From Candidatus Kerfeldbacteria bacterium (lineage in GTDB: Bacteria; Patescibacteriota; Patescibacteriia; SBBC01; CAIJZX01): a DNA stretch of 64,000 nucleotides. The stretch covers positions 21,935 through 85,934 of the forward strand of contig JACPSJ010000001.1 of assembly GCA_016193315.1 (NCBI GenBank). The letters are read 5' to 3'. The notes beneath the pieces are model-generated. The model made no database searches and had not been told where the DNA came from. It saw only the letters and a list, made by a program, of their open reading frames with translations. Below are positions 8,972-52,852 of the stretch, piece by piece. Position numbers and translations under genes: made by a program. Positions within the stretch are counted from its first letter, which is position 1, and the number at the start of each line of letters is the position of its first letter.

Positions 8972-9012
8972 AGCCGAAGGCTGAAGGCTCAGGCTGGGTT
9001 TTCTTTGCGGTG
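8972..9012 (+). terminator. intrinsic terminator candidate
   Basis: ccagccgaaggctgaaggctcaggctgg followed by gttttcttt. Confidence 0.4.
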
Positions 9013-9030
9013 CCGCCGCGTGATTGACCA

Positions 9031-9145
9031 CCCCCACACAAAATCCATCTCACTTTCGGAGAACGGTGGCAGAACTTGGATTTGTGGCCAGTAGAAAACT
9101 TTGGGCCCCTCCTCATGAGAGGAGGGGGAAGTTAAGGAGGCGCCG
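9031..9145 (+). repeat. structured intergenic element, copy A (~115 nt)
   Basis: Aligns with 10022..10134 (cccccacacaaaa...tttcggag...ttgtggccag.agaaa...cctcct/aggagg hairpin...aggcgccg), with compensatory changes in the hairpin loop and stem. Confidence 0.5.
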
Positions 9146-9182
9146 CTGAGTAAGAAAAACCGCCTCGAGTGAGGCGGCGCAG
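9146..9182 (-). terminator. intrinsic terminator of the GNAT gene (minus strand)
   Basis: Reverse complement reads gccgcctcactcgaggcggtttttctt. Confidence 0.5.
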
Positions 9183-9184
9183 AG

Positions 9185-9781
9185 TCATTTCTTGGTGCCG
9201 CGACGAGCAGACACGCGCCGCCGGTATCGTTGCCAGGCGAGGAGCCATTGGCGGCGGAATACCTCGAGGAGGATTTCGTCGTAGAACCGACCGCGGCGGA
9301 AGAACTGTTGTCGACGGCGGCCGATGACCCGATAGCCGCATTTCAAGGAGTAAGCCACGCTCCGGGCGTTAAAGGCGATGACACTGGAAAGAACTTTGCG
9401 GAGACCGAGGGTGTTGAAAGCGTATTCCAGTAGCATCATCTTGGCGTCAGTACCGTAGCCTCGATTCCAGTAGCTCGGCTCGCCGATGAAGGCCCCGGTG
9501 GTGGCAAAGCCGTGACGCCAGTTGATCCGATGGAGCCCGATGATCCCGATCGCCGCACCGTCTTTGGTTTCGATGATCAGGACGATGTCATCAGGATGCT
9601 TGGCTAAACCATCGAACCACTCGATCTCCATCTCCCGAGTCTTCGGGGTGCTCGTCTTGAGGTATTGCCAGACCTGCGGCCGGTTGATCCAGACGGTGAC
9701 GAGCTCAAGGTCGCGTTGCTTGTCGGGCGGACGGAGGTTAACAAATATTCCCTCAAGAAAGACAACTTTTGGCGCGGACAT
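9185..9781 (-). CDS. GNAT family N-acetyltransferase (RimJ/RimL-like)
   Basis: GNAT core motifs ...IGIIGLHRINWRHGFATTGAFIGEPSYWNRGYGTDA...; start at MSAPKVV. Confidence 0.8.
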   Translation of the reverse strand: MSAPKVVFLEGIFVNLRPPDKQRDLELVTVWINRPQVWQYLKTSTPKTREMEIEWFDGLAKHPDDIVLIIETKDGAAIGIIGLHRINWRHGFATTGAFIGEPSYWNRGYGTDAKMMLLEYAFNTLGLRKVLSSVIAFNARSVAYSLKCGYRVIGRRRQQFFRRGRFYDEILLEVFRRQWLLAWQRYRRRVSARRGTKK

Positions 9782-10021
9782 TTGTACCTCCCGCGGTAGG
9801 AATGAACAAAACACCCGGCGGTTCCGCCGGGGCAGTCACTGTCTACGTCGAGAAGTTACTTAGCTCTTAAAGTAAACAAGAATTGGCCCGGCAGAACGCG
9901 TTGAGCGTTCCGGCAGATGATCATGGCGTGGCACTTGGACCAATTCTGGAATTGCATGATGCGAAGAGATTACATGCCTAGTGGCCTACTGTCAAGGGCG
10001 GCGCCGCAGCGTTGTTGGGCT

Positions 10022-10134
10022 CCCCCAACACAAAACCCACCCTATTTTCGGAGGATGATGGTAGTATTGAGACTTGTGGCCAGCAGAAACTCTTAGCTCC
10101 CTCCTAAGGTAGGAGGGGATGACGAGAGGCGCCG
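10022..10134 (+). repeat. structured intergenic element, copy B
   Basis: See copy A. The hairpin ccctcctaaggtaggaggg corresponds to cccctcctcatgagaggagggg in copy A. Confidence 0.5.
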
Positions 10135-10498
10135 TGGGCCGATTACGTCAACTGCAACCGCCGCTTGACTCGCTCAACATCCCGCTCGATCCGGCGAATC
10201 CATTCGGCGGTGAAAACGCGTTCTTGGTCAATACGGGTGACGATGACTAAAGAGTCTGTCCATCACCTCGTGAAATTCATTCTTCGTCAGCATAGTTTTC
10301 TCGATCCGGTCGAATCGCGCATCATGTCGGTCGAACCTAGTATCATGTTCAAAAAGCTTCTTGTATATTGTTGTGAGATCGGGGCGAGCAGCTCGACGCT
10401 TCATTCAGCCACCATACACGAAAAGAGATCGAGCGTCAACTCTAAACGAAAGTTACACTCGCCACCCTTCGACTGGGCTCAGGGTCGCATCAGCTTTG

Positions 10499-12970: not shown

Positions 12971-12979
12971 GGGAGTCGA

Positions 12980-13429
12980 TTACGGCTGGAATTGCGGGAA
13001 GACTCGTCGCTCCAGTTGGCGGATTTCTTGATCGTTCGCCGAGGAGGTGGTGGCCGGCGGTAGCTTGACGGTCCGGAACAGTTGCGCCAAGTCAGTCAAG
13101 ATGTTCGGCGGTCGGCCGGTCTGACGCAACTCGTTCCCCAGGTTCATCGCCCAGCCCAGGACGACGACCGTCATCACACCCAGAACGAGGCCCCACATCA
13201 GGCGCCGACGGCGTTCGATGGGCCACTGCTCAACTGGTTGCCGTAACGCCGCGGCGACTGGCGCCCGGGGGGCCGGCTTGGGCGACTCAATTCGTTTCGT
13301 GCCCGCGGTCGACAGCCCGGACCGGTTCGTTTTCACCGTCGGCCTAGGGTGGCGTGGAGTCATGGCGACCGTCACCTTGATCGGGACGGCCGCGGGCGAC
13401 GATCGCTTGGTCGATTTTCTGGTAGTCAT
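12980..13429 (-). CDS. hypothetical single-pass membrane protein
   Basis: One TM helix (LMWGLVLGVMTVVVLGWAM); basic N-terminus. Confidence 0.4.
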   Translation of the reverse strand: MTTRKSTKRSSPAAVPIKVTVAMTPRHPRPTVKTNRSGLSTAGTKRIESPKPAPRAPVAAALRQPVEQWPIERRRRLMWGLVLGVMTVVVLGWAMNLGNELRQTGRPPNILTDLAQLFRTVKLPPATTSSANDQEIRQLERRVFPQFQP

Positions 13430-13505
13430 CCCGTTAGAGCGAGCTTTGTTAAGCGGTCAGGAGCTTAATACTGTGAGAGACAATCCATGTCGCGTTCAAA
13501 CGGGA

Positions 13506-14114
13506 TTATGGCTGCAGAACGACAACTTGAGTTTCTTCGGCCGGCAGGTCCTTGGTGGTTATTTTCAATTTCGGTATTGGACTGATGTTCTTGGCCCCGA
13601 ACTCTTTCAGGAACGGATCGACGGCGGCGTAGGAAAAGCGGCTGCCGGCGAAATGGTATTGAATTGGAACGACTACCCGCGGTTCGATTTGGCTGATCAG
13701 CGCCGCCGCTTGCTCGGCATTGAGTACCCGCTTGCCCCCGACCGGTACGAACAGGATGTCGACACCCTCCAGTTGCGACAACTCGCCGTTGTCGAGCTGG
13801 TGGTTAAGGTCGGCCACGTGGCCGAGGCTTAAACCCTCGGCTTCGATCCGCCAGTGCACCCGGCCGGATTCTGAGGGTAATGCCAGGCCGTAGAAAAATA
13901 ACCCCAGCAGTTCGTATTCGCCAGGAGTATTGATGACCAACGGCTGCCCCGTTACCAACGAGCGGTCGCGATGTTCGGCTTGCGACAACGCCACCACGTC
14001 AGCCGCCAGCTGGCCGGGCTTACTTCCGGTCTCGGCTGCCGGCGGGTCGACCACGGCCGAGGCCGCTTTCGTTTGGATCCGTAAACCCGCTTCTCCGAGC
14101 CAAGAAATCAGCAT
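13506..14114 (-). CDS. MBL-fold metallo-hydrolase (Lactamase_B_3-like)
   Basis: MLISWLGEAGLRIQT start and a histidine-rich beta-lactamase-fold pattern (HWRIEAEG..., GHVAD..., ILFVPVGG). Confidence 0.65.
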   Translation of the reverse strand: MLISWLGEAGLRIQTKAASAVVDPPAAETGSKPGQLAADVVALSQAEHRDRSLVTGQPLVINTPGEYELLGLFFYGLALPSESGRVHWRIEAEGLSLGHVADLNHQLDNGELSQLEGVDILFVPVGGKRVLNAEQAAALISQIEPRVVVPIQYHFAGSRFSYAAVDPFLKEFGAKNISPIPKLKITTKDLPAEETQVVVLQP

Positions 14115-14214
14115 AAAAACCAGACAGTCGACATAGCGATAATGCCCTTAGTCTAGCAGAAAAACAGACTTGTGGCAAATGTCTCGCCGTCGTACCGGCC
14201 GGCTAGAAACCTGG

Positions 14215-15075
14215 TTAGATCGGCAGCTCGTGGACCTGGCTTGAGTCAGGTGGTTCCACCGGCTGAGCGGACGGCGGTGTGGCTGGCGGGAGAGTTGAGG
14301 GTCGGGATTCGGCCGCCGGCAATGACGAAGTTGGCGGCCGTACAGTTTCCGTGCCCCGGTCGTCTTTCGTCGGCACCCGGCCAGTTTGAATCCCGCCCAT
14401 CAGCGGAGCGGCCACCGGGCGATGGGTAGACCCGACCGGTTGACCTTGACCGAGGCCCGCACCGGCCGGACCAGGGCGATTTGACCAACCGGTTGGCTGT
14501 CCGGGCAACGGCTCTGGTTCCAGAAACGCCGGCTGAACACCGCTCGTGGCAGCCATCCGGCCATGCTGAATGCCCAGCCGTTCACGGACCATGGCCATCG
14601 CCTGTTCGTGGCTCGGACGGGCCGGGGTAGTTTCGGTTGGCGGCGGAGCCGGAGCGGCCGCGGGTAGCGATTCTTTCAGCAGCCGTTTCGCCTGTTCGGT
14701 CTCATGCCCTGGCGGGTTGAGACCGGAACGCAACTTCGTTCCCTGTTCATGGGCCATCTTTAAAAAACCTCGGCTGTAGCGCCCGATTTCTTCCTTCGTC
14801 TTCAGGGTTCGCTCGTCCTTAAGCTGTCGGAGGAAGTAGGCTTGTTCTTTGTCCTCCACCCGGGCTGGTCGGGTCTGCCGGAGCTGTCGCTTAAACGATT
14901 CGGGAATGTATTTCTCAAACCCCCGCTTGATCAACTCCTGTTTGGCGGCCGGCGTCAACTGCTTCGGCCGATACGACGGTCGGAGCTGACGGGGCGGCTG
15001 CAGACGGCTGGGCACGTAACTTCGTCTCAGTGCCGGCCGACCAGAGAATCGAATGAATCGGTCGAGCATGGTCAA
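14215..15075 (-). CDS. hypothetical Pro/Ala-rich protein
   Basis: Long ORF with a basic structured N-terminal half and a low-complexity Pro-rich C-terminal half. Confidence 0.35.
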   Translation of the reverse strand: MTMLDRFIRFSGRPALRRSYVPSRLQPPRQLRPSYRPKQLTPAAKQELIKRGFEKYIPESFKRQLRQTRPARVEDKEQAYFLRQLKDERTLKTKEEIGRYSRGFLKMAHEQGTKLRSGLNPPGHETEQAKRLLKESLPAAAPAPPPTETTPARPSHEQAMAMVRERLGIQHGRMAATSGVQPAFLEPEPLPGQPTGWSNRPGPAGAGLGQGQPVGSTHRPVAAPLMGGIQTGRVPTKDDRGTETVRPPTSSLPAAESRPSTLPPATPPSAQPVEPPDSSQVHELPI

Positions 15076-31976: not shown

Positions 31977-32094
31977 GCGGTGTCAACCCCGGACGGGGTC
32001 GGTCTTGACGCGTTGCACTTTTTGTGTTACCGTGCCTTGTCCTTCACGGACACTCACGTCGAACATTTTTCAACCAGTTCCATGAGGAGGCAGC

Positions 32095-32634
32095 GTGGAA
32101 AGCTCAGTTGCGTCCCTGAAACTCGGCCCACCCGAACTCGTCGAAGCCCGCATCTGGGGGACCCTGGCCGCCGGCATTCTCATTGGTCACCTCAAGGATC
32201 CGGCTCGGAACTCCGGACGGCTACTGGTCATGACCGACAGCGGCACGAGCGAGTGGAACGTCGGGATCGTCCCCGACGACAAGCTGGCGAAACGCAAGGA
32301 CATCGTTCGCGAGAAGGCTGCGAGGCTGAGGCGGATGAACAACCAGCGCGGTGACGTCTTATCCTGGCAGTCGAAGGATGAGGCCAACGAGCAGTTTGGT
32401 GGTGCGGCTTTCGCCCGGGACGTGATCGTCGCCTTCACCGGCCTGCCGCAGTTGGCTGACGAAGCGGTCAGCCTGGCCGTGCTCGTCCGGCTCAGGGCAC
32501 TGTCGGTCGCGCCGGCCCGCCAGTACAGCCTGATCAGTGGCAGCACCGAGTTCTTCGACCTCCTGGCGCGTCTGTTCTGGCCGAATGAGTTCGCGGCGCT
32601 CGGAGCGCCGGCCGCCAGCCCCGTTCCCGCCTAA
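32095..32634 (+). CDS. hypothetical protein, GTG start
   Basis: GAGGAGG 4 nt upstream of the GTG at 32095. Confidence 0.45.
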   Translation: MESSVASLKLGPPELVEARIWGTLAAGILIGHLKDPARNSGRLLVMTDSGTSEWNVGIVPDDKLAKRKDIVREKAARLRRMNNQRGDVLSWQSKDEANEQFGGAAFARDVIVAFTGLPQLADEAVSLAVLVRLRALSVAPARQYSLISGSTEFFDLLARLFWPNEFAALGAPAASPVPA

Positions 32635-32649
32635 GCAGTCAGACCTTTT

Positions 32650-33140
32650 TCAGACCGCGGGCACGTCAGTGCCCCGGTTTTTTGTCGATTCGCTGGGCGC
32701 CGATTGCCAGGCGCGTCTCGCCGCGAGCGCGGTTCCAAACAAAAAAATTGAAATCCCAGCTGAGATGAGGCAGTAGAAACAATAAGCTTTCAACACGAAT
32801 GCTTGCAGCCAGAGTAGATACAGGCTAAAGAGGAACCCCACCACGGTCAGAAGCATCAGGATCCGTAGCCACCGGACCTGTCCAGTATCCAGAACCATGA
32901 TGCTGAGAACGACAATGACCAGGTAGTAGCCCGCGCCCAGGAGCGAAATCGGAACCGGGCCGATGGTAGCGTAGACGCTATTGGTCACTACGTCGCAGCC
33001 GGTGGTGACCAGGCAGGGGATTGGCCCGTGCGTTAACTTCTCGACCGTCAGGAATGTGGCGTCGGCAAAGCCAAGCACGCCCAGGACGAGAAAGACAATG
33101 ACCCAGGTTTTTGGTTGACGCGCCGCCAGACCGTTAGTCA
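32650..33140 (-). CDS. vitamin K epoxide reductase (VKOR) family protein
   Basis: 4 TM helices, loop Cys pair CLVTTGC and active-site CFYC in TM4. Proposed GTG start at 33140 overlaps the TAA of the upstream DsbA-like ORF (gtgactaa). Confidence 0.7.
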
Positions 33141-34272
33141 CATCCCGTTCCCAAGCCCCCGACGCAGTTCTCGGTCGGCGGTTGACCGCGCTCCGGGCAC
33201 TTCTCCGAGTAGATACAGGCTTTGTCCGTGACGTTGGCCACCTGATCTTGGGTTTCGGCCGGCGTGTAGGTGCCAAAGAGAACAAGAATCCTGTCCAGGT
33301 CGTTCGGCTGATAGGCGCCAAACTGTGTATTCGCTTGGCCATTGACGAACAGTTGAAGTTTCTGGTCGCCGCTGGTGCATTTGTCCTGGCCGGTGTCGAG
33401 TTTCAAACATTGCGCGGTCAAGCCCATGCCGAAGGAGGTCAAGAGATCACTGAGGCTGACGTCAGCGGCGTGGATGTGCACCACCTCGCCATTGCCGTCG
33501 TGGAAATGGATGCCGGGGTGGAGGTGGTTGGCTTCGGTGGCTTGGAATTTATCCTGGGAGAAGTCGATGGCTTGACCATCGACGACCAGGCGAAAATCAA
33601 AGTGGTTGTGCACGGTGGCCGGGCTGGTGTTTGTCAACGGCCGCTTAGCAATTGCTTCTTCAATCAGCTTCTGGAAGTCTTCCAGACTGCGCGGGTTCTG
33701 AAGACGTTCGCCGTTGAGAAAGAAGGTCGGTGTACCGTTGACTTGGGCGCGGCGGCCGCTGGCGGCGTCGGTATCGACGACACTCGATACGGCGGTAGAA
33801 TCCAGATCAAGAGATCGTGCATCGGCCAGAACGCATCCTGTTTGGCCGCGGCCTCGGAGGCTTCGGCCGAGGCTTCAGCGTTTAGATGCGACTGGGTCAG
33901 CGGGAAGTGGCGGTAGGCGAGGCCAAGCCGGTCACCGAACTTGTCCGTCAATGATTGCAGGACCGATTCGTAGGCGGCGCAGGCCGGACACTGGAAGTCG
34001 CCGTATTCGATCAGAATCGCTGGTGCCTGGGCTGAACCACGAACATGATCAGTGGCTTTGATGGCATCAACCGATGAGTTAGTGTTGTTATCCGGTTGGC
34101 CCTTGGCCAAGTAGACGAGGCCCCAGACGATGAGGCCTAACCCAAGAATCGTCCCCCCCCAAGTGAGGATGCGCCGCGGGGCCACCGGTTTCTTGACCGA
34201 CTCATTGGTCGGCAACAGTCCTTGCCGGCGTAACTCGCGACGCTGCTTCTTGGTCAAATGTTGGTCGTCCAT
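33134..34272 (-). pseudogene. DsbA-family thiol:disulfide oxidoreductase with an N-terminal TM anchor and a C-terminal Cys-rich extension, interrupted by a frameshift near 33760..33810
   Basis: Upstream ORF: TM anchor, then FQCPAC...FWPMHDLL (DsbA-like). A different frame continues with ...RRAQVNGTPTFFLNGERLQNPRSLEDFQKLIEEAI... (classic DsbA C-terminal motif) into ORF 33134..33637. Confidence 0.5.
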
Positions 34273-34291
34273 AGGTGAACGGTTAGGTTAC

Positions 34292-34501
34292 TCAAGTGTC
34301 GTCTGGCGCGCTATATTTCTCTGGATCGTCGAGGAATTGTCGAAAGCAATCGGCGGAGTGAAAATAATACGTGGTTTGGTGGTAGTCATATGTCTGAGCC
34401 GCTTGTCGAGGGTCGAGGGCGACATCACAAACGGGATCAACAACCGAGCCGATGGATGCGTCGTCGACTTCTGTCGATGCTGCATATGGACCAATGACCA
34501 C
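34292..34501 (-). CDS. YHS-domain small metal-binding protein
   Basis: DPVCDVALDPRQAAQTYDYHQTTYYFHSADCFRQFLDDPEKY fits the YHS motif (DPVCxM...YYFCS..C...F..nPekY). Confidence 0.6.
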   Translation of the reverse strand: MVIGPYAASTEVDDASIGSVVDPVCDVALDPRQAAQTYDYHQTTYYFHSADCFRQFLDDPEKYSAPDDT

Positions 34502-34519
34502 GGCGATAGGCAGGTGCTG

Positions 34520-35458
34520 TTATTGGCACACCGGCGGCGATTCGTAACTGACCGATTCATAGGTTAGGCCCAGACTAGCGATTAAGCCAGCTTTTTCTAA
34601 CTCGCCATCGCACTTATGATCGCCCGAAGGTCGTTTCCCAACGTTCCCGACGCAGTAGTACTGCATTTCGGTGCCGGTCCAGGGCCAATACTGGTCTCCG
34701 CACATGACCAGTGGACCGTCATCCGGCCAAAATCCTCCTCCGGCACAGTTACAGCAAGTCCCATAATAGGTGCTATTTGACGAGAAGGAATGACTAGTTT
34801 CAGTGGTGTTGCCATTTGGGGAGCGGTAGCGGCGCAATTGACCCTTAATTGCTTTGCTGGAGTTCAAGAACGCTCGGCTGCCGCTTTTTTCCAGTTCAAT
34901 CTGAATGACATAGTGTTGGAAGTTGTCGAGTTCGCCGCTCACCAGATAGTGCCAGTGCTGCCGGTGCCAAGTGCTGCTCGGCCCACCCTCATATCTGGGC
35001 GTACCCGGAATTATTTTGTTAACAATCGGGTCATCGGGGATGGAACCGATAAGGTAGGGCTGTAAGATATCTTCCAACTGTTTCCATCCGCTCGGTAAGT
35101 CGCCCCCGGAGGCGGAAGAGATACACTCGGTATGAGGGTAAGTACCGTGGGCCGTATAGTACCGTTCGAGAGCCAGCTGAATCTCGGCCGCATCGGCTGC
35201 CCGCTGGGCATTCCTCGCTCGCACCCGCGCGCCGGAGGCGTAGTTGATGCCGATCAGGCTAATAATGCCGAGCACGCCGATGGTGATGACTATTTCGATC
35301 AAGGTGAAACCGAAAATTCGCCGTACTTTCTTGGTCGGAAGGTGTGGGGTTTGTAGAAGGTTGGACGGAGCCCGGCGGCTCGACCGGGCGACTGGGGGTG
35401 AAGCGGTTATTGCCGGCCGGGTGGCGGTGGGCTTAGGGTCTCGTGGTGTCACTAGCAA
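34520..35458 (-). CDS. prepilin-type N-terminal domain protein with a Cys-rich C-terminal domain
   Basis: ...KKVRRIFG|[16 protein letters not shown] prepilin motif. The C-terminus has a CCNC...C...C...C cluster. Start unclear: the conceptual leader is ~49 aa and the ORF overlaps the copA 3' end. Confidence 0.6.
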
Positions 35459-37868
35459 GGCGGAAACGTTTTAGCCGCAGTGAGTTTAGCACGACGAAGA
35501 GCGACGAGCCAGCCATGGCGCCGGAAGCGATGATCGGGCTGAGCAACAGATGAAACGCCGGGTACAGGACACCAGCGGCGATCGGCAGGCCGAGAATATT
35601 GTAGATGAATGCCCAGAAGAGATTCTGCTTGATATTCCGGAGCGTAGCTTTTGATAGGCGGATGGCGGTTACCACCTGACGGAGGTCATTGCCGACGATG
35701 GTGATATCCGACGCTTCCCGCGCCACGTCCGTGCCCGAGCCCATGGCCATGCCGACATCGGCTTGGGCCAGAGCTGGTGCATCATTGACGCCATCGCCGA
35801 CCATGGCCACGCGGTGTCCAGCAGCCTGGAGTTCTTTGACCTTGGCCGCTTTGTCGCCCGGCAGAATATTGGCCAGCACCCGATCGCGGTCAATGCCGAC
35901 TAGCTGAGCGATGCGGGCGGCCGTCACTTCGTGGTCGCCGGTGATCATGAAGACGGTTAGCCCGAGGCGACGTAATTGCGCGATGGCCGCCTGGCTGGTT
36001 GGCTTGATTTTGTCGCCGACGCCAATCAGCCCAGCCGTGTCTGCCTCAACCGCCACCATGATCGGCGTCAACCCACGCCTGGTGTAGGCTTGATGGTCGA
36101 ATCGGTCACCCGTAGTGAAAACGCCGAGGTTGTGCACCAGCCGTGGGGAACCGACAATCACTCGCTGTCCATTGATCACACCACTGACTCCTTGTCCGGG
36201 ATGGTTGTTGAAACCCACGACCGGCTGGAGAGTTAAACCCCGCTTCTTGGCTTCGGCCACGATCGCTTTGGCCATCGGGTGCTCGCTTTTTGCTTCGACT
36301 GAGGCGGCGTACTGCAGCGTGTAGTCTCGCCCGACGACATCGATCACGGCCATCTGCCCGCTGGTGACGGTGCCGGTCTTGTCCAGCACGATCGTGTCGA
36401 CCCGCTGAAGCAATTCCAAAGCCTCGGCATCGCGCACCAGCACGCCTTGTTCAGCGCCGCGACCAACACCAATCATAACCGCCGTCGGCGTGGCTAAGCC
36501 AAGGGCGCAGGGGCAGGCAATGATCAGCACCGTGACCGCGGCGATCAAGCTGAAGTTCAGGGCCAGGACGCCAGCCGGCGGGAAAATCATCCAGACGGTA
36601 AACGCCACCAGCGCGATGGCGATGACAATCGGCACAAAAACTCCAGAAATCTTGTCGGCCAAACGCTGAATTGGAGCTTGCGAGCTCTGGGCCTCCTCCA
36701 CCAGCTGGATGATCTGTGACAACATCGTTTGCTTCCCGACCTTCGTGGCGCGGAAGGTGAAGCTGCCGTGAGTATTGATGGTACTGCCGTAGACGATACT
36801 GCCCGGACTTTTCTCCCGCGGCAGGCTTTCGCCAGTGACCATCGCCTCGTCAACCGCCGACTGCCCGTCGACCACCTCGCCATCAACGGCTATTTTTTCA
36901 CCCGGCCGGACGACGATCACATCGCCCACCACGACTTGGTCAAGCGGTACTTCTCGTTCTTGCCCATGGCGGATAACGCGCGCCACTTTGGCGGCCAATT
37001 GGGCCAGTTTGCGGATCGCTTCATTGGCGCCGGCCTTAGCCCTGGCTTCAAGATACTTACCGAGCAGAATGAGCGTGATGATGACGACGGTCACGTCAAA
37101 GTAGGTGGCTGGTTGCTGCCCACTGCCGGCAAAAGCCGCTGGCCAGACCACTGCGACCAGGCTGAAAAAGTATGCGGCGCTGGTGCCGAGAGCGATGAGC
37201 GTATCCATGTTCGCTTGCCAGAAGCGCAGCGATTTCCAGGTGCTGACGAAAAACTGCGATCCAGCCCAGAAGAGGACCGGCGTGGCCAGAAGAAGTTGAA
37301 TCGGTCGAATGGTTGATTCGGGAGCGATGGTTGCTCCGAACAACATCAATGCGTCCGGCAGCATGACCATGATCGAAGTAACCACCCCGAACCTCAACTT
37401 GCGTTTTAAGATAAGGAGTTCTTCCTGTCGCAACATCCGGGCGTGATCGTGGACGCTGTGTTCCATTGAGCCGGTTTCACCGGTGTGTTCGTGGGCCGAT
37501 GGTTCGTGTTCGTCATGGTGGTCGTGGGCGGCCGCGGCTCCTCCCCTGCCCGACCGCTCGGCCATGAGCTCGCGGCCGAATGGGGGGAGGTGTCCCGAGC
37601 TTCGTCGAGGGGCGGAGGGGTGGGAGCCGCGGCCGCCCTCAATAACGGCCGTGTATCCCAGCTTGTCGATTTGCTCGGCGATCCGTGTTGGTGAGCATTG
37701 CTGTGAATCGAAAGTCACCCGACCCTGCTCGGTGGCGTAATTGACGTTAACCTCAGCCACGCCTGGTAGCTTTTTGACCACCCGCTCAATGTTCTTGGCG
37801 CACGAAGCACAGTGCATGCCGACGATGGGAAAACGAAGGCTGGTGGTCATACCCTGGTCACTGAACAA
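35433..37868 (-). CDS. copA: copper-translocating P1B-type ATPase
   Basis: N-terminal HMA ([12 protein letters not shown]), His-rich stretch, CPC in the TM region, [15 protein letters not shown]. Confidence 0.9.
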
Positions 37869-38859
37869 TGTTCACCGGCTGACCGTGCTCAAAAGCCTCG
37901 ATGTTCTTTATCGTTGTGTCTAGAATGCGCTGGAGCGCCTCGCCGGAGTTAAAGGCGTTGTGTGGTGTGATGATCACTTTCGGGTGGTTGAGGAGCAGGT
38001 GATCGGCCAAGACCGTCTTGAGGTCACACTTCGTCTGGAAAACCTTTGACAGCAACTCCCGCTCTTCCTTGATGGTGCATTCTTCTTCCAAAACATCTAG
38101 GCCGACGCCAGCCAGGTGTCCTTCGCCCAACACCTTCAAGAGTGCCTGCGTATCAATCAGTTGACCACGGGCGGTGTTGATCAGCCAGGCAGTCGGCTTC
38201 ATCAACCGCAATCGTGCTTCGTTGAGGAGATGCTGATTGTCCGGCGTGGCTGGCGCGTGGAGGGAAACGACGTCGCTCCGTCGCAACAGATCGTCCAGCG
38301 GGACGTACTGGAATTCAAGCCGTCGGGCCTGCTCTTGATTCGGGCGTGGGTCATAAGCGATGACCGACATTTCCAGCCCCCGCCCCATTTTGATCAGCCG
38401 TTGACCGATCCGACCGGCACCGACCACGCCCATGGTTTTACCGGCCAAGTCCACGCCACGCAGGTCGTCGAGACGAAAATCGCCATGCTGAGTTCGGACC
38501 ACGCTGGGGATGATTTTTCTCGACAGGGCGAGGAGCAGGGCCAAAGCATGTTCAGCCACAGTGTTCTCGCCGTACGACGGCACGTTGCAAACGGTGATGC
38601 CGTGGCTGTGGCAGGCGGCCAAGTCAATGTGGTCGTACCCGGTCGACATGGTGGCGATCAGCCTCAGTGCCGGGTAGCGGTCGAGGACGTCTTTGGTGAT
38701 CGGGCTGTAGATAAAGATGGCCAACACGTCGGGTTGCCCGATATCACCGGCTTCATCAAGATGCTTGGTGGAAAACTGCCCGTTGGGGAAAACCCGCCGT
38801 AGATAATCGATTTCCCATTGTTCCAGCTCGACCGCCGCCAGGCGCATGGTTTGATTCAT
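37858..38859 (-). CDS. D-isomer-specific 2-hydroxyacid dehydrogenase family protein
   Basis: NAD-binding [12 protein letters not shown], catalytic R/E/H region (NTARGQLID...PHNAF). Confidence 0.85.
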
Positions 38860-39131
38860 AGTCGGTCAAAAACCTGCATTAGTTCAGCGATCGTTTTTTC
38901 GGCCGCCCCGCCTCTGGTGTCCCGCATGTCCCGGGCGACGCAGGTACGGAGGTGATGCTGCAGCACTTGCTCGTCAAACTTTCGCAGCGCCTGCTGGATG
39001 GCCCGCGATTGGTGGATGATGTCGATGCAGTAGGCGCCTTCATCGAGCATGCGGCGAACTTTCCGCAGGTGTCCCTCGACGATGGCCAGACGGTGAGCCG
39101 TGGTTTTTCGCTTATCTTGGAGGGTTTTCAT
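38856..39131 (-). CDS. csoR: CsoR/RcnR-family metal-sensing transcriptional repressor
   Basis: HRLAIVEGHLRKVRRMLDEGAYCIDIIHQSRAIQQAL...HL (W-X-Y-Z Cys/His positions of the CsoR family); 4-bp overlap with the dehydrogenase gene. Confidence 0.75.
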   Translation of the reverse strand: MKTLQDKRKTTAHRLAIVEGHLRKVRRMLDEGAYCIDIIHQSRAIQQALRKFDEQVLQHHLRTCVARDMRDTRGGAAEKTIAELMQVFDRL

Positions 39132-39157
39132 GGTTATCCAACCTTCGTCCACAAGTC

Positions 39158-39216
39158 TGGTATGGGGGATTGAGGAATCATGGTGTGGATAGTCCTAATC
39201 CCCTATGGGGGGATTA
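39158..39216. promoter_or_regulatory. candidate CsoR operator(s) in the csoR promoter region
   Basis: GC-tract pseudo-palindrome taatcccctatggggggatta (39196..39216) plus a second tggtatgggggattg half-copy (39158..39172). Resembles known CsoR boxes (TACCC-n-GGGTA type). Confidence 0.4.
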
Positions 39217-39332
39217 TAACAGTCCACAGGCCGGGGCACAATCCCCTCTATCTACGGACCTACTTCGCGAGGTTTTTGCTTGTCGCTTGACATTGAAATA
39301 GCGGCTGGTGTAGGGTGTGTTTACAACCGAAT

Positions 39333-39510
39333 ACGCATCAAGAGAGGGTGATAGCGCACGCTCAACGTGCCGCGGGTGTACTGGACCCGCCAAGCGCCCC
39401 CACAACCTACCTCAAGCTTGTCGAGAGGCAAGGTGCGAACCCAGCCCTGTCCGGCGGAGGGACGTAGTACGTCCCGGAGCCGGATCCGGCTCGGCCGGAA
39501 AAGGGACAGA
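39333..39510 (+). promoter_or_regulatory. SAM-I (S-box) riboswitch-like element, variant with insertions (upstream copy)
   Basis: P1 acgcatc...gatgc; core ATCAAGAGAGGGTGA...ACTGGaCCCG...AACC...GGTGCGAAccCAGCC...GGACAGATG; resembles the RF00162 consensus. Confidence 0.4.
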
Positions 39511-41820: not shown

Positions 41821-42027
41821 CTAAACTAATTCCACCGGGTAACCCTCCGAGTCGAGCGCGGTCTTGAGAGCCGCCGATTGGACGCTGTCGTCATGCTCAA
41901 CCGTCAACGTTTTCTGCCGGACATTGACTTCAGCCTTTTTCACTCCCGGCGTATCTTCGCAGATGCCTTCCATCACCAAAGCGCAGGAGGCGCAGTCGTA
42001 CTTGAGAACCTTGAATGTCGTCGTCAT
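41821..42027 (-). CDS. copZ: heavy-metal-associated (HMA) copper chaperone, CopZ-like
   Basis: MTTTFKVLKYDCASCALVMEGICEDTPGVKKAEVNV, a ferredoxin-like HMA fold with a CxxC metal site; the start overlaps the upstream stop (TAATG). Confidence 0.7.
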   Translation of the reverse strand: MTTTFKVLKYDCASCALVMEGICEDTPGVKKAEVNVRQKTLTVEHDDSVQSAALKTALDSEGYPVELV

Positions 42028-43025
42028 TAGACCGCCTGGATCGTCCCGCGGAACATGCCCATGCCGCAACTAAACGTATACTCGCCCGGCGCGGGGAAGA
42101 TCGCACTTACCAGCGTGGTACCGGTTCGCGGCAGGGATCGTTCAATCTGGAGCTTCGGGATGCGAAAGAGCTGGGTGCAGCCGGCGTTGTTGTTCGTTAC
42201 CAAACTCAACTCGACAGGTTGGCCGGCTGGGACAGTAACGATGTTCGGTTCGTAGCCATTGTTAAGAACATTGATAGTTAGACTAGTTTCCCCGGCAGTC
42301 GAAGTCTGAGTGGTGCCGTAGGCCAAGGCTCGGAAGGCGGCGATTTCGTTTTGAATGGAGTAAGGCGAATCGACCATCACCAGCACGCCGTTGAGCGTGT
42401 AGAGTCCTAACGCCACCACCACCGCGGCGGCGGCATAGGCCAACCGCCGTTGCAACAATGCTGTGCCCTTAGCCAGAATCCCGACGGTAAAGAACAACGG
42501 CGCCGTCCCCAGGACAAAAGCGAGCATCACGCTCGCGCCTTGCCAAGGGCTGGCCGTGGCGATGGCCGCCACCTCCATCGCCTGCGTCGTCCCGCAGGGG
42601 ATGAGCACCGTCAGCAGACCGAGGATGGCGGGCGCGATCAGGAGTTGACTCTTGGCGCTCCGCCGAATCAGACGGCGGGCCGAGGCCGGCGGATGAATGG
42701 TTAACCATGGTAACCAGTGGGGGAAGATCAATCGAACGCCGGCTACCAACATAAACAAACCGGCTAACGTCTGCAGCCAAATACGAACGGTGGTGGTCAA
42801 TTGGATGGTATCGCCGAGCCAGCCGAGGCCGAATCCAAGGACCGTATGGATAATCAGCTTGGCCACCAGGAAAGCGGTTACCGGCAAGATCAACAGTTGC
42901 CATCGCTGCAGGTGGGGTTCCTCTCGGCGGCGGGCCAAAAGTCCGAGTAGCAGCCCGCCCTGGACGGCCAGGCAGGTCAGGCCCCCGGTACTGAGGCCAG
43001 TCAAGAAAGCAGTCAGCGGCGTCAT
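42027..43025 (-). CDS. membrane protein: CcdA/DsbD-like six-TM core fused to a C-terminal cupredoxin-like domain
   Basis: TM1 FLTGLSTGGLTCLAV and TM4 LIPCGTTQ resemble the two Cys-containing helices of CcdA/DsbD. The C-terminal ~90 aa ends in GEYTFSCGMGMFRGTIQAV, a Cupredoxin_1-like motif. Confidence 0.6.
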   Translation of the reverse strand: MTPLTAFLTGLSTGGLTCLAVQGGLLLGLLARRREEPHLQRWQLLILPVTAFLVAKLIIHTVLGFGLGWLGDTIQLTTTVRIWLQTLAGLFMLVAGVRLIFPHWLPWLTIHPPASARRLIRRSAKSQLLIAPAILGLLTVLIPCGTTQAMEVAAIATASPWQGASVMLAFVLGTAPLFFTVGILAKGTALLQRRLAYAAAAVVVALGLYTLNGVLVMVDSPYSIQNEIAAFRALAYGTTQTSTAGETSLTINVLNNGYEPNIVTVPAGQPVELSLVTNNNAGCTQLFRIPKLQIERSLPRTGTTLVSAIFPAPGEYTFSCGMGMFRGTIQAV

Positions 43026-49630: not shown

Positions 49631-52600
49631 CTAACTTTCCAACCCGAGCTCGCGGCGATTGCGTCGCAGGAGGACGTATCCAGCCGTCAGGGCGGCCACC
49701 CCGAGACTGAAGAGCACGTAGTCGCTAGCCGAGACGCCAGTTTCGGCCAGACCCAGCACCTGCGGCACCTTGACCGTGATGGTAGCTTGAGCGGTGATTG
49801 GATCGACGTCGTCGGCCGTCGCCACTGCCGTATTGACGTAGTTGCCAGCCTTAACGTCTTGACCGACGGTTACCTGGTAGGTGATCGTCTTTGCATCGCC
49901 GGGCGCGATCAAGTCGTAAGTCCATTCCTTGGTGCTAGTGCCATCGGGATAGGAGAACCCGGCTGGCAACTTGTCGGTCACCACGACGTTTCGGGCCTGG
50001 CCGTCACCGTGGTTGGAAACCACCAGGGTATAGGTCACGGTCTTACCTGGATTGGTGACGGTCGGGTCGGCCGTTTTCTCCAGGCTGAGTTCAGGAGTAG
50101 CGACGCCGAGGACTTGGGGTACTCTGACCACGATGTCCGAAGTGTCGCTGACCGGATCAGTGTTGGTGGCGTCAGCGGTGGCCGTGTTGGTGTAGGTGCC
50201 GGCCGTCGCGCCGGGGTCGATATTGACGACATAGGTGAAGGTTTTTGATTTGCCCGGCGCCAAGTCACCGATGACGAAATCCTTGGCTGTACCGCCGCCG
50301 TCGTTGAACGTCAGGTTAGCTGGCAGGACATCCTTGAGCGTTACGTCCTCAGCCGCAGCGGTGGCGGATGAAGCGTTGCTCACCGATACCGTGTAGGTGA
50401 TAGCGCTGTTGGGATTGACGAAGGCCGGGGCGTTGTTTGACTTGGACACCCGCAGAGCCGGAGCTGATTTGACGGTGGTGGTGGCGGTGTCTTCGACCGC
50501 GTCGGTCTCGTCGCTGTCAAAGGTGGCGGTGTTCTCTAGGATCGTACCAGTAGCCAGCGGCGATTTGACTTTCACCGTGACGGCCACGCGGCCGCGGTCG
50601 CCGGGATTCTTGGTGCCGAGATCCCAGGTGACGGTGCCGTCGGCAAAGGCGCCGCCGTGGTCAGCACTGACGAACGTTGTGTCGGACGGAATCGGGTCAG
50701 TGATGACGGCCTGGGTGGCCGGCGTGTTGCCGTCGACGGACCAATCCAGGGTGTAAGTCAGGTTATCGCCAGCGTCGATGGTAGCGGGCCCGGTCTTGTC
50801 GAGATCGATGGTGGTCACCAGTTTCCGGTTGGTGAACGTGCACTGGTATTCAGCCCCCGGCGAGGCCCGGAAGGTGACACTCGTATCCTGGTCGACGTCC
50901 AATGGGTCCCCGTTGACGCGACACTCGACGCCGACGAACTCATAGCCAGCCTTGACATCTTCACGGACGGTCGTCGAGCCCGGACTGATGGTGCGCGTCG
51001 AACCCGTGGCGAAGTTTTGATTGCCACCGTTGAGATCCCACGTCCAGTTCGTGGCTCCAACCACGTCGCTGGCATCTTCCAGGTCGCCGTCACCGTTCTG
51101 ATCGACGTTCTTGTTGACGGTCAGCGAGGCGGTGGGTAGAAGACGATTGCAGAGCGTAATGGCTGTATTCTGGAACGGCTCGACGTCAACCATGATCGGT
51201 AAGGTTGTGCCTTCAAAACTCTCGGCATCGTCACACGAGGCCTCTCGGTCGCTGAAGAACCAGCCCACGAATCCGTAACCGGCGGCTAGTTTTTCATTGA
51301 CCGAATGGGAACCCGGGTTAGCCACGACGGTGTTGCCCATGGCGTTGGCGCTGCCGCCATCGACGGCCCAGGTGAATCCGAGTTGGTTGGCCTGGTCATT
51401 ACCGCCCTCGAATTGTTGATCGAAGTCGGAGTTAACCTGCTTGTTGACCCGAATCGAGCCGGGGCAGAGCGCACGCGCATAACCGGTCAAGGCGTCGCCG
51501 ATGCCGTCGAAGTCGGCGACCTTGATGACATCAGTGTTCGTGGTGATGGCGTCTGGGCTAGTGGCGATGGCCGGGCCAGAGATAGCCGACAACTTATAGT
51601 TATTCCAGCTTGAGTCACCGCTATCGAATTCCGGATCAGTGTCATCCTCGCCGATGCCGATGACGACAATGCGAGTACCGCTCTGTTTGATGGTGTTGGC
51701 ACGCTCGATCGCTTTTTCCAATCCGTCGTTCCAGTCAAACGGTTCGGCGGCGGGATACCCCCAGCGATTCGGTGATCCGTCGGTAGCGATGACCATCAGG
51801 TTTGGGTTCGGACGCGGGTCGAAGCTGTCCCCACTCTGGGCCAGCCCGGCATCCCAGTTGGTATGACCGTCACCACTCGACGGCAAGGCGTTGATCGCGG
51901 CCGCTGCTTGCGCCGCGGTCATGGGAAAACCCTGCTCGAGATTTGAACTGGTGGCAAACGAGGCCAGGCTGAAGACCGTTGGCGTGTCGTCGAAGGCGTT
52001 AACGAAGGTGGTCATCGCCTCCTTGATCTGCGTCATGTCGCTGCTGCTGACGCTGTCCGAGGCGTCGACAATCAATCCCACATCGAGACCACAGGATTGC
52101 CCGAGGCCCGGATTCGCCGTGGGCATCAAGTAGTTGACCCTGACCGCCACCGAGTCGACGCCCACCCGATTCGGAGTCTGGAGGCTGCCCGGGAAGCTCG
52201 CCCGGAGGCGGACGGCGAATGAATCGTTGTCCAAGTCGGTGGCCGGCCACTGGTCACGGCCCCATTCGTCGTTCGGTCCACCCACGATGAGTGTGGTGTA
52301 GTCGGCACCGAAGTTGTCAGCGTCTCGCCGGTCCTCCCAACCCGACGTGCCAGCCGGATTGTCGGCGCTGACATAAACGTCGAGATCGAGTTCGCCGCTG
52401 CCGCTGGTGCGGTGAGCTTTGATTTGTACCTCCAGACCGGTGACGACCGCGCCGGACGGGATGGAAATGTTAAAACCGCCATACTTCTCTTGGCCATCGT
52501 GGTCGAAGACTGCATCCTCGCCATCGGCGGCGTAGGCTTTGGATGGGTTGGATACGATGGTATGAATATTGGCGTTCGATGTTGGCGCTTTCCAGCTCGT

Positions 52601-52852
52601 GGTGGCCGCGTTGGCCACCGCTGGTACGAACAACGCCGTCAGTGAACTGATGTTAATCATGGTGGCGATGGCCACCAAGATATTGAAAACTTTCCACGTG
52701 CGCCGGCGCGCGGCTTTCCGGCGGAGCGTGGCCCAGCCAATGATTGTGCCACTGATCATGAGAAAAACCCTGGTTAGCTTATGAAAACGGCCAAGGGGTT
52801 TTCTACTACCCCCCATAGCCGGTGCATGTTTTTGACCATGTTTCATTACCAT
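49631..52852 (-). CDS. large surface protein: signal/TM N-terminus, vWA domain, DUF11-type repeats, C-terminal LAETG sortase-type sorting signal
   Basis: vWA MIDAS region GLDVGLIVDASDSV...VIATDGSPN; repeated Thr/Val-rich Ig-like repeats; C-terminus LAETGVSASDYVLFSLGVAALTAGYVLLRRNRRE (LPXTG-like motif, TM helix, basic tail). Confidence 0.8.
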   Translation of the reverse strand: MVMKHGQKHAPAMGGSRKPLGRFHKLTRVFLMISGTIIGWATLRRKAARRRTWKVFNILVAIATMINISSLTALFVPAVANAATTSWKAPTSNANIHTIVSNPSKAYAADGEDAVFDHDGQEKYGGFNISIPSGAVVTGLEVQIKAHRTSGSGELDLDVYVSADNPAGTSGWEDRRDADNFGADYTTLIVGGPNDEWGRDQWPATDLDNDSFAVRLRASFPGSLQTPNRVGVDSVAVRVNYLMPTANPGLGQSCGLDVGLIVDASDSVSSSDMTQIKEAMTTFVNAFDDTPTVFSLASFATSSNLEQGFPMTAAQAAAAINALPSSGDGHTNWDAGLAQSGDSFDPRPNPNLMVIATDGSPNRWGYPAAEPFDWNDGLEKAIERANTIKQSGTRIVVIGIGEDDTDPEFDSGDSSWNNYKLSAISGPAIATSPDAITTNTDVIKVADFDGIGDALTGYARALCPGSIRVNKQVNSDFDQQFEGGNDQANQLGFTWAVDGGSANAMGNTVVANPGSHSVNEKLAAGYGFVGWFFSDREASCDDAESFEGTTLPIMVDVEPFQNTAITLCNRLLPTASLTVNKNVDQNGDGDLEDASDVVGATNWTWDLNGGNQNFATGSTRTISPGSTTVREDVKAGYEFVGVECRVNGDPLDVDQDTSVTFRASPGAEYQCTFTNRKLVTTIDLDKTGPATIDAGDNLTYTLDWSVDGNTPATQAVITDPIPSDTTFVSADHGGAFADGTVTWDLGTKNPGDRGRVAVTVKVKSPLATGTILENTATFDSDETDAVEDTATTTVKSAPALRVSKSNNAPAFVNPNSAITYTVSVSNASSATAAAEDVTLKDVLPANLTFNDGGGTAKDFVIGDLAPGKSKTFTYVVNIDPGATAGTYTNTATADATNTDPVSDTSDIVVRVPQVLGVATPELSLEKTADPTVTNPGKTVTYTLVVSNHGDGQARNVVVTDKLPAGFSYPDGTSTKEWTYDLIAPGDAKTITYQVTVGQDVKAGNYVNTAVATADDVDPITAQATITVKVPQVLGLAETGVSASDYVLFSLGVAALTAGYVLLRRNRRELGLES

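What the first reader, a model, noticed from the sequence alone, without database searches (positions are those of the whole stretch)
32650..34272. DsbA-like / VKOR disulfide-formation pair: DsbA interrupted by a frameshift, VKOR translationally coupled via GTGACTAA
The upstream gene has a TM anchor and an FQCPAC thioredoxin motif through FWPMHDLL. It then goes out of frame. The classic C-terminal ...QVNGTPTFFLNGERL... is encoded in another frame and runs into a Cys-rich ~120-aa extension (ORF 33134..33637). The segment between HDLL and GTPTFF is ~25 aa shorter than in typical DsbA proteins, so this is either a real pseudogene (deletion plus frameshift) or an assembly indel. VKOR (CFYC plus a loop Cys pair) most likely starts at a GTG overlapping the DsbA stop. 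The Cys-rich pilin gene lies immediately upstream in the same orientation, which would fit a dedicated oxidative-folding module for that pilin.
Basis: partly seen in the sequence, partly recalled or inferred. Interest (0 to 1): 0.5.

Follow-up and report, generated by a model that had tools for sequence, protein, structure and literature searches.

The report
DsbA fusion gene broken by deletion
A disulfide-bond enzyme gene in a copper-export gene cluster of an uncultured groundwater bacterium looks broken only because this assembly lacks 100 bases that every other assembly of the same strain has; this is probably an assembly error, and the more interesting part is the undescribed histidine- and cysteine-rich domain fused to the enzyme.

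Summary
On the minus strand, a membrane-anchored DsbA-like gene (FQCPAC) leaves its frame after ...FWPMHDLL. Its C-terminal part (QVNGTPTFF...) plus a Cys/His-rich domain continues in another frame. A 163-aa VKOR gene starts at a GTG inside GTGACTAA.

The cause is a 100-nt deletion (33 codons + 1 nt, junction at 33808/33807). Contigs from five sibling sequencing runs match the window at 100% identity over 28.5 kb. All four that cover the site carry the 100 nt and encode an intact 412-aa protein. The split ORFs exist only in the NCBI record of this Ca. Kerfeldbacteria MAG.

The junction has 1 nt of microhomology. The source pipeline (MEGAHIT plus IDBA-UD scaffolding) is documented as prone to local errors. 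I judge an assembly artefact most likely (~0.6), with a real private deletion allele as the rival (~0.3).

More than 100 CPR/DPANN homologues are intact DsbA + C-domain fusions. The locus is the tail of a copper operon (CsoR, CopA, YHS, DsbA-Cdom, VKOR). The closest orthologous locus has the same order without the pilin gene, so the pilin-dedicated reading is not supported.

The ~165-aa C-domain has no Pfam, NCBIfam or PDB match. It also occurs fused to CopA-type ATPases and to a multicopper oxidase.

The parts
33808..34272 (-). Authentic 5' part of the DsbA-like fusion gene: codons 1-155, with a TM anchor at residues 35-53 and CPAC at residues 95-98. The ORF as it stands then runs on out of frame to the stop at 33664.
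   Evidence: Identical to residues 1-155 of the intact 412-aa protein P0123.
33807..33808 (-). Junction of a 100-nt deletion. It removes codons 156-188 (FDRQAEWSSLPNPRDKFKSYAQELGLDAERFEQ) plus 1 nt. Microhomology is 1 nt (G).
   Evidence: The 100 nt are present in L001, L002, L088 and L089. The missing part equals Thioredoxin_4 profile positions 86-114 and helices of the alpha-helical insert.
33626..33808 (-). 3' part of the DsbA domain in the shifted frame (residues 189 to about 249 of the intact protein), including the cis-Pro loop GTPTFF and the last helix.
33137..33625 (-). C-terminal His6/Cys6 domain ('Cdom', residues about 250-412). Conserved residues are H255/H257, H289/H291, H299/H301, C322, C332, C386, C392, C403 and C411, with the motif ACIYSEKCPERGxPPTExCVGGLG. 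It has no known family.
32650..33141 (-). VKOR gene (163 aa). Its GTG start overlaps the upstream stop by 8 nt (GTGACTAA).
   Evidence: The same start was called on the Logan contigs.
34292..34501 (-). YHS-domain gene (about 63-69 aa), between the pilin-like gene and the DsbA-like gene.
   Evidence: PF04945, 41.8 bits. Same position after CopA in L090.
34520..35350 (-). Type IV pilin-like, Cys-rich gene (G|FTLIEIV prepilin motif). It is a lineage-specific insert between copA and yhs.
   Evidence: Absent from L090 and from 80 related loci.
35433..37850 (-). CopA-type copper P-type ATPase (805 aa).
38856..39131 (-). CsoR-family copper-responsive repressor (PF02583), the likely head of the operon. 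A 2-hydroxyacid dehydrogenase gene (37858..38859) follows it.
41821..43025 (-). DsbD_2-Cupredoxin_1 fusion gene (42027..43025) and a small HMA copper-chaperone gene (41821..42027) of the same copper island.
   Evidence: Same pair in L090.

Best explanation
In the organism this is one intact gene for a 412-aa protein. The protein has a single N-terminal membrane anchor, an extracytoplasmic DsbA-like thiol oxidase (CPAC, cis-Pro loop), and a roughly 165-aa His6/Cys6 domain with a beta-grasp-like fold. An overlapping VKOR gene follows it, and its product presumably re-oxidises the DsbA domain.

Both genes form the distal end of a CsoR-controlled copper-efflux operon: csoR, 2-hydroxyacid dehydrogenase, copA, (pilin-like insert), yhs, dsbA-Cdom, vkor.

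The break seen in the window is a 100-nt deletion that exists only in this MAG assembly. It is most probably a local scaffold-join or assembly error from the MEGAHIT + IDBA-UD pipeline, not a biological frameshift.

Inferred function: the module keeps exposed cysteines correctly oxidised while Cu(I) is being exported, and the C-domain handles copper at the outer face of the membrane.

Shown: gene identities, the deletion, its absence from sibling assemblies, the synteny, and the domain fusions. Inferred: the artefact origin, VKOR-to-DsbA electron flow, translational coupling, and the copper role of the C-domain.
For: Deletion and its distribution:
- The deletion is defined to the base.
- Contigs from runs SRR12113419, -385, -390, -425 and -401 match the window at 100% over 5986-14371 and 24254-44272, apart from this deletion and one G8/G9 tract.
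- All four contigs that reach the site (L001, L002, L088, L089) carry the 100 nt.
- The split products (167 and 202 aa) are held only by NCBI, from one 857-kb contig. They are on record on no other contig.
- The junction has only 1 nt of microhomology and the length is exactly 100 nt.

Assembly pipeline:
- The source study assembled with MEGAHIT and scaffolded with IDBA-UD (PMC7906910).
- The same laboratory reports that local assembly errors are prominent with IDBA-UD, with 13 in one 1.13-Mb CPR genome (PMC7111523). That is about one per 87 kb, so one such error in a 64-kb window is expected.

Intact family and context:
- 120 homologues of 343-451 aa are intact fusions. The deleted stretch contains nearly invariant residues.
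- Copper synteny is conserved in L090.
- CopA sits directly upstream of the fusion in 4 of 13 GTDB loci.
- Copper genes lie near 6/17 Cdom loci against 6/63 DsbA-only loci (Fisher p = 0.016).
- Cdom is fused after an extra TM helix to CopA-type ATPases (L070; P0219 and P0265) and to multicopper-oxidase fragments (P0243).
Against: - No reads were available, so the artefact origin is not demonstrated.
- De Bruijn assemblers cannot invent a junction without read support. The error would therefore have to arise at the scaffolding or joining step, and my recollection of how IDBA-UD trims negative-distance joins is untested here.
- In run SRR12113425 the contig L089 ends 9 nt past the right edge of the 100-nt segment, and L085 starts 1 nt before that edge. 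This coincidence could instead reflect a real mixed population at the site.
- I attribute the MAG to the He et al. data set from the record names and accession ranges, not from a direct look-up.
- The copper role of the C-domain rests on gene fusions and neighbourhood only. Some fusion loci have no metal genes (L091).
Confidence: 0.6

Rival explanations
1. The 100-nt deletion is a real, very recent loss-of-function allele. It was dominant in the one sample from which the MAG was assembled, so in that sub-population the DsbA-Cdom gene is a pseudogene. The VKOR gene downstream may also be poorly translated.
For: - K-mer assemblers normally need read support for a junction.
- A Logan contig break falls exactly at the right boundary of the segment in SRR12113425. 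This is what a coverage step at a polymorphic site would give.
- Illegitimate recombination with 1-nt microhomology does occur.
- A second length polymorphism (G8/G9) exists in the same gene in SRR12113390.
Against: - None of the sibling assemblies that cover the site has the deletion. There are zero other differences over 28.5 kb.
- The split ORFs are absent from every Logan, ENA or JGI contig on record.
- A length of exactly 100 nt, with no flanking repeat used, is unusual for a natural deletion. The GATCT...GATCT pair was not used; using it would give a 105-nt deletion.
- The scaffolder has a high documented rate of local errors.
Confidence: 0.3
2. One reading: the DsbA/VKOR pair is a dedicated oxidative-folding module for the Cys-rich type IV pilin-like protein encoded upstream.
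For: - The pilin-like protein is Cys-rich and lies in the same orientation within 250 nt.
- The nearest solved relatives of the DsbA domain include actinobacterial and Gram-positive membrane-anchored oxidases (4pwp/4pwo, 7unn, BdbD 3eu3).
- From my own knowledge, not tested here: the actinobacterial MdbA/VKOR system is needed for pilin folding.
Against: - A YHS gene intervenes.
- The closest orthologous operon has no pilin gene.
- No pilin homologue was found in 80 related loci.
- The conserved neighbours are CopA, CsoR, YHS and DsbD_2-cupredoxin.
- The pilin could still be one incidental substrate.
Confidence: 0.05
3. The two ORFs are independent genes, or a programmed frameshift product, and the shortened DsbA is a functional variant.
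For: NCBI annotates them as two proteins. Stand-alone C-domain proteins exist elsewhere.
Against: - Stand-alone C-domains always carry their own N-terminal membrane anchor. The 167-aa ORF here has none.
- The first start codon in that frame lies downstream of the in-frame DsbA C-terminus.
- The missing 33 aa include nearly invariant residues and helices of the DsbA fold.
- The same strain has the uninterrupted gene.
Confidence: 0.02

Closest known systems
Membrane-anchored DsbA-like oxidases paired with VKOR in monoderm-type bacteria: Mycobacterium tuberculosis DsbA Rv2969c with VKOR, actinobacterial MdbA/VKOR, and Bacillus BdbD with BdbC.
   Same: - N-terminal anchor, CxxC thioredoxin fold with a helical insert, and a cis-Pro loop.
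- Best PDB sequence matches are 4pwp/4pwo 'DsbA', 7unn and BdbD 3eu3 (E 3.5e-16 to 1e-14).
- An adjacent VKOR gene with a loop Cys pair and a CxxC.
- PMC3792642 describes the Mtb DsbA-VKOR relation.
   Different: - It carries an extra 165-aa His/Cys domain at the C-terminus.
- It sits in a copper-efflux operon.
- The host is a CPR bacterium, a group generally thought to lack quinone synthesis (my own knowledge), so the electron acceptor of VKOR is unclear.
- 0 of 12 other fusion loci have an adjacent VKOR.
Scs system (ScsB/C/D) of Salmonella and relatives: Dsb-like, Cu-binding thiol oxidoreductases induced by copper stress.
   Same: - A thioredoxin-fold envelope oxidoreductase genetically tied to copper homeostasis (PMC10907172).
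- A DsbD-family membrane partner (DsbD_2-cupredoxin) is encoded in the same island.
   Different: - Only weak, partial sequence similarity to ScsC structures (6nen, 6mhh; E about 6e-4 to 1e-3).
- The partner here is an oxidising VKOR, not a reducing ScsB.
- The C-domain has no counterpart in Scs.
Beta-domain of transcobalamin / DUF4430-type beta-grasp domains (for example 3u7z 'putative metal binding protein').
   Different: - The scores are weak, with about 10-16% identity.
- The three HxH motifs and the CPERGxPPTExCVGGLG tail are absent from those proteins.
- There is no sequence-level relation.

Membership tests
DsbA-like thioredoxin-fold oxidoreductase (Pfam PF13462 Thioredoxin_4 / PF01323 DSBA) | Profile match above the curated cut-off | tested here: met
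   N-fragment 38.8 bits, C-fragment 32.2 bits, repaired protein 68.5 bits, against a cut-off of 23.2.
DsbA-like thioredoxin-fold oxidoreductase (Pfam PF13462 Thioredoxin_4 / PF01323 DSBA) | CxxC active site and cis-Pro loop in one polypeptide | tested here: not met
   In the window, CPAC (residues 95-98) and GTPTF lie in different frames. The feature is met in the intact allele P0123 and in 80/80 homologues, where C73, C76, T192 and P193 of A6 are invariant.
DsbA-like thioredoxin-fold oxidoreductase (Pfam PF13462 Thioredoxin_4 / PF01323 DSBA) | Complete alpha-helical insertion domain | tested here: not met
   The window lacks profile positions 86-114, which are residues 156-188. In the model of the intact protein these residues form helices of the insert.
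DsbA-like thioredoxin-fold oxidoreductase (Pfam PF13462 Thioredoxin_4 / PF01323 DSBA) | Thiol oxidase activity and extracytoplasmic location | not testable with these tools
   The only evidence for location is a single N-terminal hydrophobic segment at residues 35-53.
VKOR (PF07884) | Profile match above the cut-off, four TM segments, a loop Cys pair and a CxxC at TM4 | tested here: met
   82.7 bits against 27.5. Hydrophobic segments at 14-32, 65-83, about 95-116 and 121-139. Cys at 43, 49, 121 and 124. Matches Synechococcus VKOR structures 4nv6/3kp9.
VKOR (PF07884) | Quinone-dependent re-oxidation of the partner DsbA | not testable with these tools
   Inferred from gene adjacency and the overlap GTGACTAA. 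39 of 59 plain DsbA loci of relatives have VKOR immediately downstream.
Pseudogene (real gene decay) | The disrupting lesion is reproducible in independent data from the same population | tested here: not met
   0 of 4 sibling-run contigs covering the site carry it. The split ORFs occur only in the one NCBI record. Reads were not available.
Pilin-dedicated oxidative-folding module (MdbA/VKOR-like) | Conserved linkage of the oxidase to the pilin substrate gene | tested here: not met
   The pilin-like gene is absent from L090 and from 80 related loci. A YHS gene intervenes.
Copper-homeostasis operon (CsoR/CopA type) | Co-oriented CsoR repressor, CopA ATPase and metal-binding accessory genes, with conserved order in relatives | tested here: met
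   Window and L002: CsoR, 2-hydroxyacid dehydrogenase, CopA, YHS, DsbA-Cdom, VKOR, with DsbD_2-cupredoxin + HMA upstream. L090 has the same order at 53% protein identity. Copper induction was not tested.
Scs (suppressor of copper sensitivity) proteins | Sequence membership in the ScsC family | tested here: not met
   Only marginal partial matches to 6nen and 6mhh (E 6e-4 and 1e-3, residues 57-139). No NCBIfam Scs hit.

The most novel reading that the evidence does not exclude

Its features are three HxH motifs on neighbouring beta-strands, a Cys pair, and the tail CPERGxPPTExCVGGLGxxC. The family has 777 cluster representatives and no Pfam, NCBIfam or PDB relative.

The domain is tethered to the outer face of the membrane in four ways: by its own anchor, by DsbA, by an extra helix after CopA, or by a multicopper oxidase. 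There it would receive exported Cu.

In the boldest version it would act as a quinone-independent re-oxidant of DsbA. This would explain why 0 of 12 other fusion loci have the VKOR gene that 39 of 59 plain DsbA loci have.
Probability: 0.35. Interest if true: 0.6.

Novelty: new variant of a known kind. Interest (0 to 1): 0.3.

Why it matters
For the finding as stated, the practical value is a correction. MBI2984056.1 and MBI2984057.1 are two halves of one 412-aa protein, and the 'frameshift' should not be read as gene decay or recoding without read evidence.

The wider point is that CPR bacteria, which have minimal genomes, recurrently place a DsbA/VKOR pair and a DsbD_2-cupredoxin inside copper-efflux operons. 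Many of them also fuse DsbA to an uncharacterised His/Cys domain that appears on CopA and on a multicopper oxidase.

If that domain binds copper or re-oxidises DsbA, it would be a new component linking copper export to envelope thiol chemistry. This would be in organisms that lack a periplasm and, as far as is known, quinone synthesis.

Tried and rejected
- **JGI metagenome scans.** I scanned for the deletion junction and, as a control, for the intact left boundary. Both gave 0 hits, so the organism is not in that collection and the null result is uninformative.
- **Exact look-ups of the split ORFs.** The 167-aa and 202-aa products are not on record on any contig.
- **Look-up of the 1073-aa ORF at 49631..52852.** Intended to extend the comparison; nothing found, probably because the called start differs.
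- **AlphaFold-database fold library.** Not available.
- **Word-indexed protein search with the C-domain alone.** Returned only 27 hits. The exhaustive representative search was needed to see the family.
- **Promoter and terminator scan of 32000-39500.** At chance level.
- **Supplement search of the source paper for the SRR numbers.** No hits, so I could not tie runs to sites or identify the MAG's source sample.
- **Literature searches for VKOR or DsbA in CPR.** No paper found on the subject.
- **Slippage between the flanking GATCT repeats.** Rejected: both copies are retained, and slippage would delete 105 nt.
- **Programmed frameshift, or two independent genes.** Rejected because the same strain has the uninterrupted gene.

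Full report
**1. What is in the sequence**

All genes discussed are on the minus strand.

The ORF 34272..33664 encodes 202 aa. It has one hydrophobic anchor (residues 35-53) and the motif FQCPAC (C95, C98). It matches Pfam Thioredoxin_4 positions 4-85. After ...FWPMHDLL (residue 155) it reads 47 residues with no similarity to anything.

A second frame carries DLDSTAVSSVVDTDAASGRRAQVNGTPTFFLNGERL... This matches the end of the same Pfam model (positions 115-165). It continues through a His- and Cys-rich stretch to a stop at 33134.

The first start codon in that frame is the TTG at 33637. That is why the ORF list, and NCBI, show a 167-aa ORF.

The VKOR gene starts at the GTG 33141..33139. It overlaps the upstream TAA (33136..33134) within GTGACTAA. 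It encodes 163 aa with four hydrophobic segments, a loop Cys pair (C43, C49) and C121-F-Y-C124. It scores 82.7 bits on PF07884.

- The gap is 33 aa, not about 25.
- The extension is a domain of about 165 aa.
- A YHS-domain gene (34292..34501) lies between the pilin-like gene and the DsbA-like gene.

**2. The lesion is a 100-nt deletion private to this assembly**

A search with the conceptually repaired protein found more than 100 homologues of 343-451 aa, all intact DsbA + C-domain fusions. Those with a name are from Kerfeldbacteria, Gottesmanbacteria, Magasanikbacteria and Parcubacteria.

The best hit and its cluster mates identify the window. The 167-aa and 202-aa halves are MBI2984056.1 and MBI2984057.1 of a Candidatus Kerfeldbacteria MAG (locus tag HYY50_00265, contig of 857,372 bp). 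The same 90% cluster holds an intact 412-aa protein from Logan assemblies.

The Logan contig L002 (SRR12113419, 24 kb) is identical to the window over 20 kb. The one exception is 100 nt that it has and the window lacks, between 33808 and 33807.

The missing bases encode FDRQAEWSSLPNPRDKFKSYAQELGLDAERFEQ plus one base. This explains both the shorter protein and the frame change. The stretch includes nearly invariant family residues. In the model of the intact protein it forms helices of the alpha-helical insert of the DsbA fold.

Contigs from five runs (SRR12113419, -385, -390, -425, -401) match the window at 100% over 5986-14371 and 24254-44272. All four that reach the site are intact. The only other difference is a G9 instead of G8 tract (window 34153..34160) in SRR12113390. 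That difference shifts the called N-terminus of P0001.

The split products are on record on no other contig.

**3. Artefact or real allele**

The junction has 1 nt of microhomology. The nearby GATCT...GATCT pair was not used. The length is exactly 100 nt.

The naming of sibling records (NC_groundwater_...) and the accession ranges point to the Northern California groundwater study. That study assembled each filter with MEGAHIT and scaffolded with IDBA-UD (PMC7906910). This attribution is my inference.

The same laboratory states that local assembly errors, meaning consensus unsupported by even one read, are particularly prominent with IDBA-UD. It found 13 such errors in one 1.13-Mb CPR genome (PMC7111523). 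At that rate, one error in a 64-kb window is expected.

Two points cut the other way:
- K-mer assemblers need reads for a junction, so the error must come from the joining step.
- In SRR12113425 the Logan assembly breaks exactly at the right edge of the 100-nt segment. L089 ends 9 nt past the edge and L085 starts 1 nt before it, an 11-nt overlap. This could be the trace of a mixed population, or of a coverage dip that also broke the MEGAHIT contig there.

I put the artefact at about 0.6 and a real private deletion allele at about 0.3. Read mapping would settle it. Either way, the population's gene is intact.

**4. Context**

From L002's gene calls and phmmer on the window, the gene order is as follows:
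- DsbD_2-Cupredoxin_1 fusion (42027..43025)
- HMA chaperone (41821..42027)
- three unknown genes
- CsoR (38856..39131)
- 2-hydroxyacid dehydrogenase (37858..38859)
- CopA (35433..37850)
- pilin-like gene
- YHS
- DsbA-Cdom
- VKOR

The closest orthologous locus is L090, at 53% protein identity and from an unrelated run. It has DsbD_2-cupredoxin, HMA, CsoR, dehydrogenase, CopA, YHS, DsbA-Cdom and VKOR in the same order, with no pilin gene.

Among 80 loci from GTDB species representatives:
- No relative of the pilin-like protein occurs.
- 4 of 13 full fusions have CopA directly upstream.
- Copper genes lie within 8 kb of 6/17 C-domain loci against 6/63 DsbA-only loci (p = 0.016, not corrected for phylogeny).

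Other fusion loci show a ZIP transporter and a FUR-family gene (L092), or no metal genes (L091).

The pilin-dedicated reading is therefore not supported. The conserved theme is copper and metal homeostasis.

**5. The C-terminal domain**

In 120 fusions and 59 stand-alone proteins the conserved residues are as follows, in intact-protein numbering:
- H255 and H257
- H289 and H291
- H299 and H301
- C322 and C332
- C386, C392, C403 and C411, within ACIYSEKCPERGxPPTExCVGGLGxxC

The AlphaFold model is confident (pLDDT 89.7). It places the three HxH motifs on beta-strands. From this I infer a histidine-lined face suited to metal binding. I could not inspect coordinates.

An exhaustive search finds 777 cluster representatives. 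Their architectures are:
- Mostly 185-220-aa proteins with their own N-terminal anchor.
- Many DsbA fusions.
- Two CopA-type ATPases with the domain at the C-terminus (P0219, P0265).
- One protein with multicopper-oxidase fragments (P0243).

In L070 (Peregrinibacteria) the CopA ORF continues through an extra hydrophobic helix into the domain. That would place the domain outside the membrane, next to the metal exit.

In an archaeal contig a stand-alone copy lies two genes after a DsbA (L094).

These fusions tie the domain to both DsbA and copper export. Its chemistry is unknown.

**6. VKOR linkage**

39 of 59 evaluable plain-DsbA loci have VKOR immediately downstream. By contrast, 0 of 12 evaluable fusion loci do (p = 2e-5, not corrected for phylogeny). 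The window and L090 are the exceptions.

This leaves room for the speculative idea that the C-domain can substitute for VKOR. That would be attractive for CPR bacteria, which are generally thought not to make quinones (my own knowledge).

**7. Comparison with known systems and verdict**

The DsbA domain is closest to membrane-anchored Gram-positive and actinobacterial oxidases (4pwp/4pwo, 7unn, BdbD). The VKOR is closest to the Synechococcus enzyme. As a DsbA/VKOR pair it is an ordinary member of a known kind.

The link between an envelope thiol oxidoreductase and copper stress has a known analogue in the Scs system (PMC10907172). Sequence membership in Scs is not met.

The added C-domain and its placement in a copper operon make it a new variant.

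The frameshift itself is most likely not biology. Overall interest is low to moderate (0.3). The interest lies mainly in the undescribed domain, not in the break that drew attention.

Noticed in passing
window 34292..34501 (-): A small YHS-domain gene (PF04945, 41.8 bits) lies between the pilin-like gene and the DsbA-like gene. In L090 the same gene directly follows CopA.
   Followed up: yes
window 34153..34160 (-); L001 about 897-905: A G8 homopolymer sits inside the DsbA gene just before the membrane anchor. It is G9 in the SRR12113390 assembly, which shifts the frame and produced the different N-terminus of P0001. It could be a sequencing or assembly slip, or a length-variable tract.
   Followed up: partly
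L070 1411..4383; proteins P0219, P0265, P0243: The His/Cys C-domain is also fused to CopA-type P-type ATPases, after an extra hydrophobic helix. It is also fused to a protein with multicopper-oxidase fragments.
   Followed up: yes
loci L003-L082 (GTDB species representatives): 0 of 12 evaluable DsbA+C-domain fusion loci have an adjacent VKOR, against 39 of 59 plain DsbA loci (Fisher p about 2e-5, not corrected for phylogeny). The window and L090 are exceptions, with both.
   Followed up: partly
window 34520..35350 (-) versus L090 5800..5803: The Cys-rich type IV pilin-like gene looks like a lineage-specific insertion between copA and yhs. In L090 the two genes are 2 nt apart.
   Followed up: partly
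L089 end (4604) and L085 start; window about 33797..33809: In run SRR12113425 two Logan contigs end and start with an 11-nt overlap exactly at the right edge of the 100-nt segment that the window lacks. This is either a coverage dip or a hint of heterogeneity at that site.
   Followed up: partly
window 41821..43025 (-): A DsbD_2 (CcdA-like) membrane domain is fused to a cupredoxin domain, followed by a small HMA protein. The same pair occurs in L090 and next to CopA in several CPR loci (L004, L013, L015, L023, L082).
   Followed up: no
L094 4493..6585: On a probably archaeal contig (it encodes ribosomal protein L44e), a DsbA gene, an unknown 166-aa gene and a stand-alone anchored C-domain gene lie in a row. 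Full fusions also occur in a Woesearchaeota MAG (L011), and a stand-alone copy in a Micrarchaeota MAG (P0144).
   Followed up: no
L092 5167..9580: In another Kerfeldbacteria MAG the fusion gene follows a ZIP metal transporter and lies near a FUR-family regulator. The metal link may therefore not be restricted to copper.
   Followed up: no
window 32659..32684 (+): A GC-rich hairpin followed by a T-run lies 25 nt after the stop of the convergent 179-aa gene (32095..32634, +). It overlaps the last codons of VKOR and is probably that gene's terminator. The scan as a whole was at chance level.
   Followed up: no
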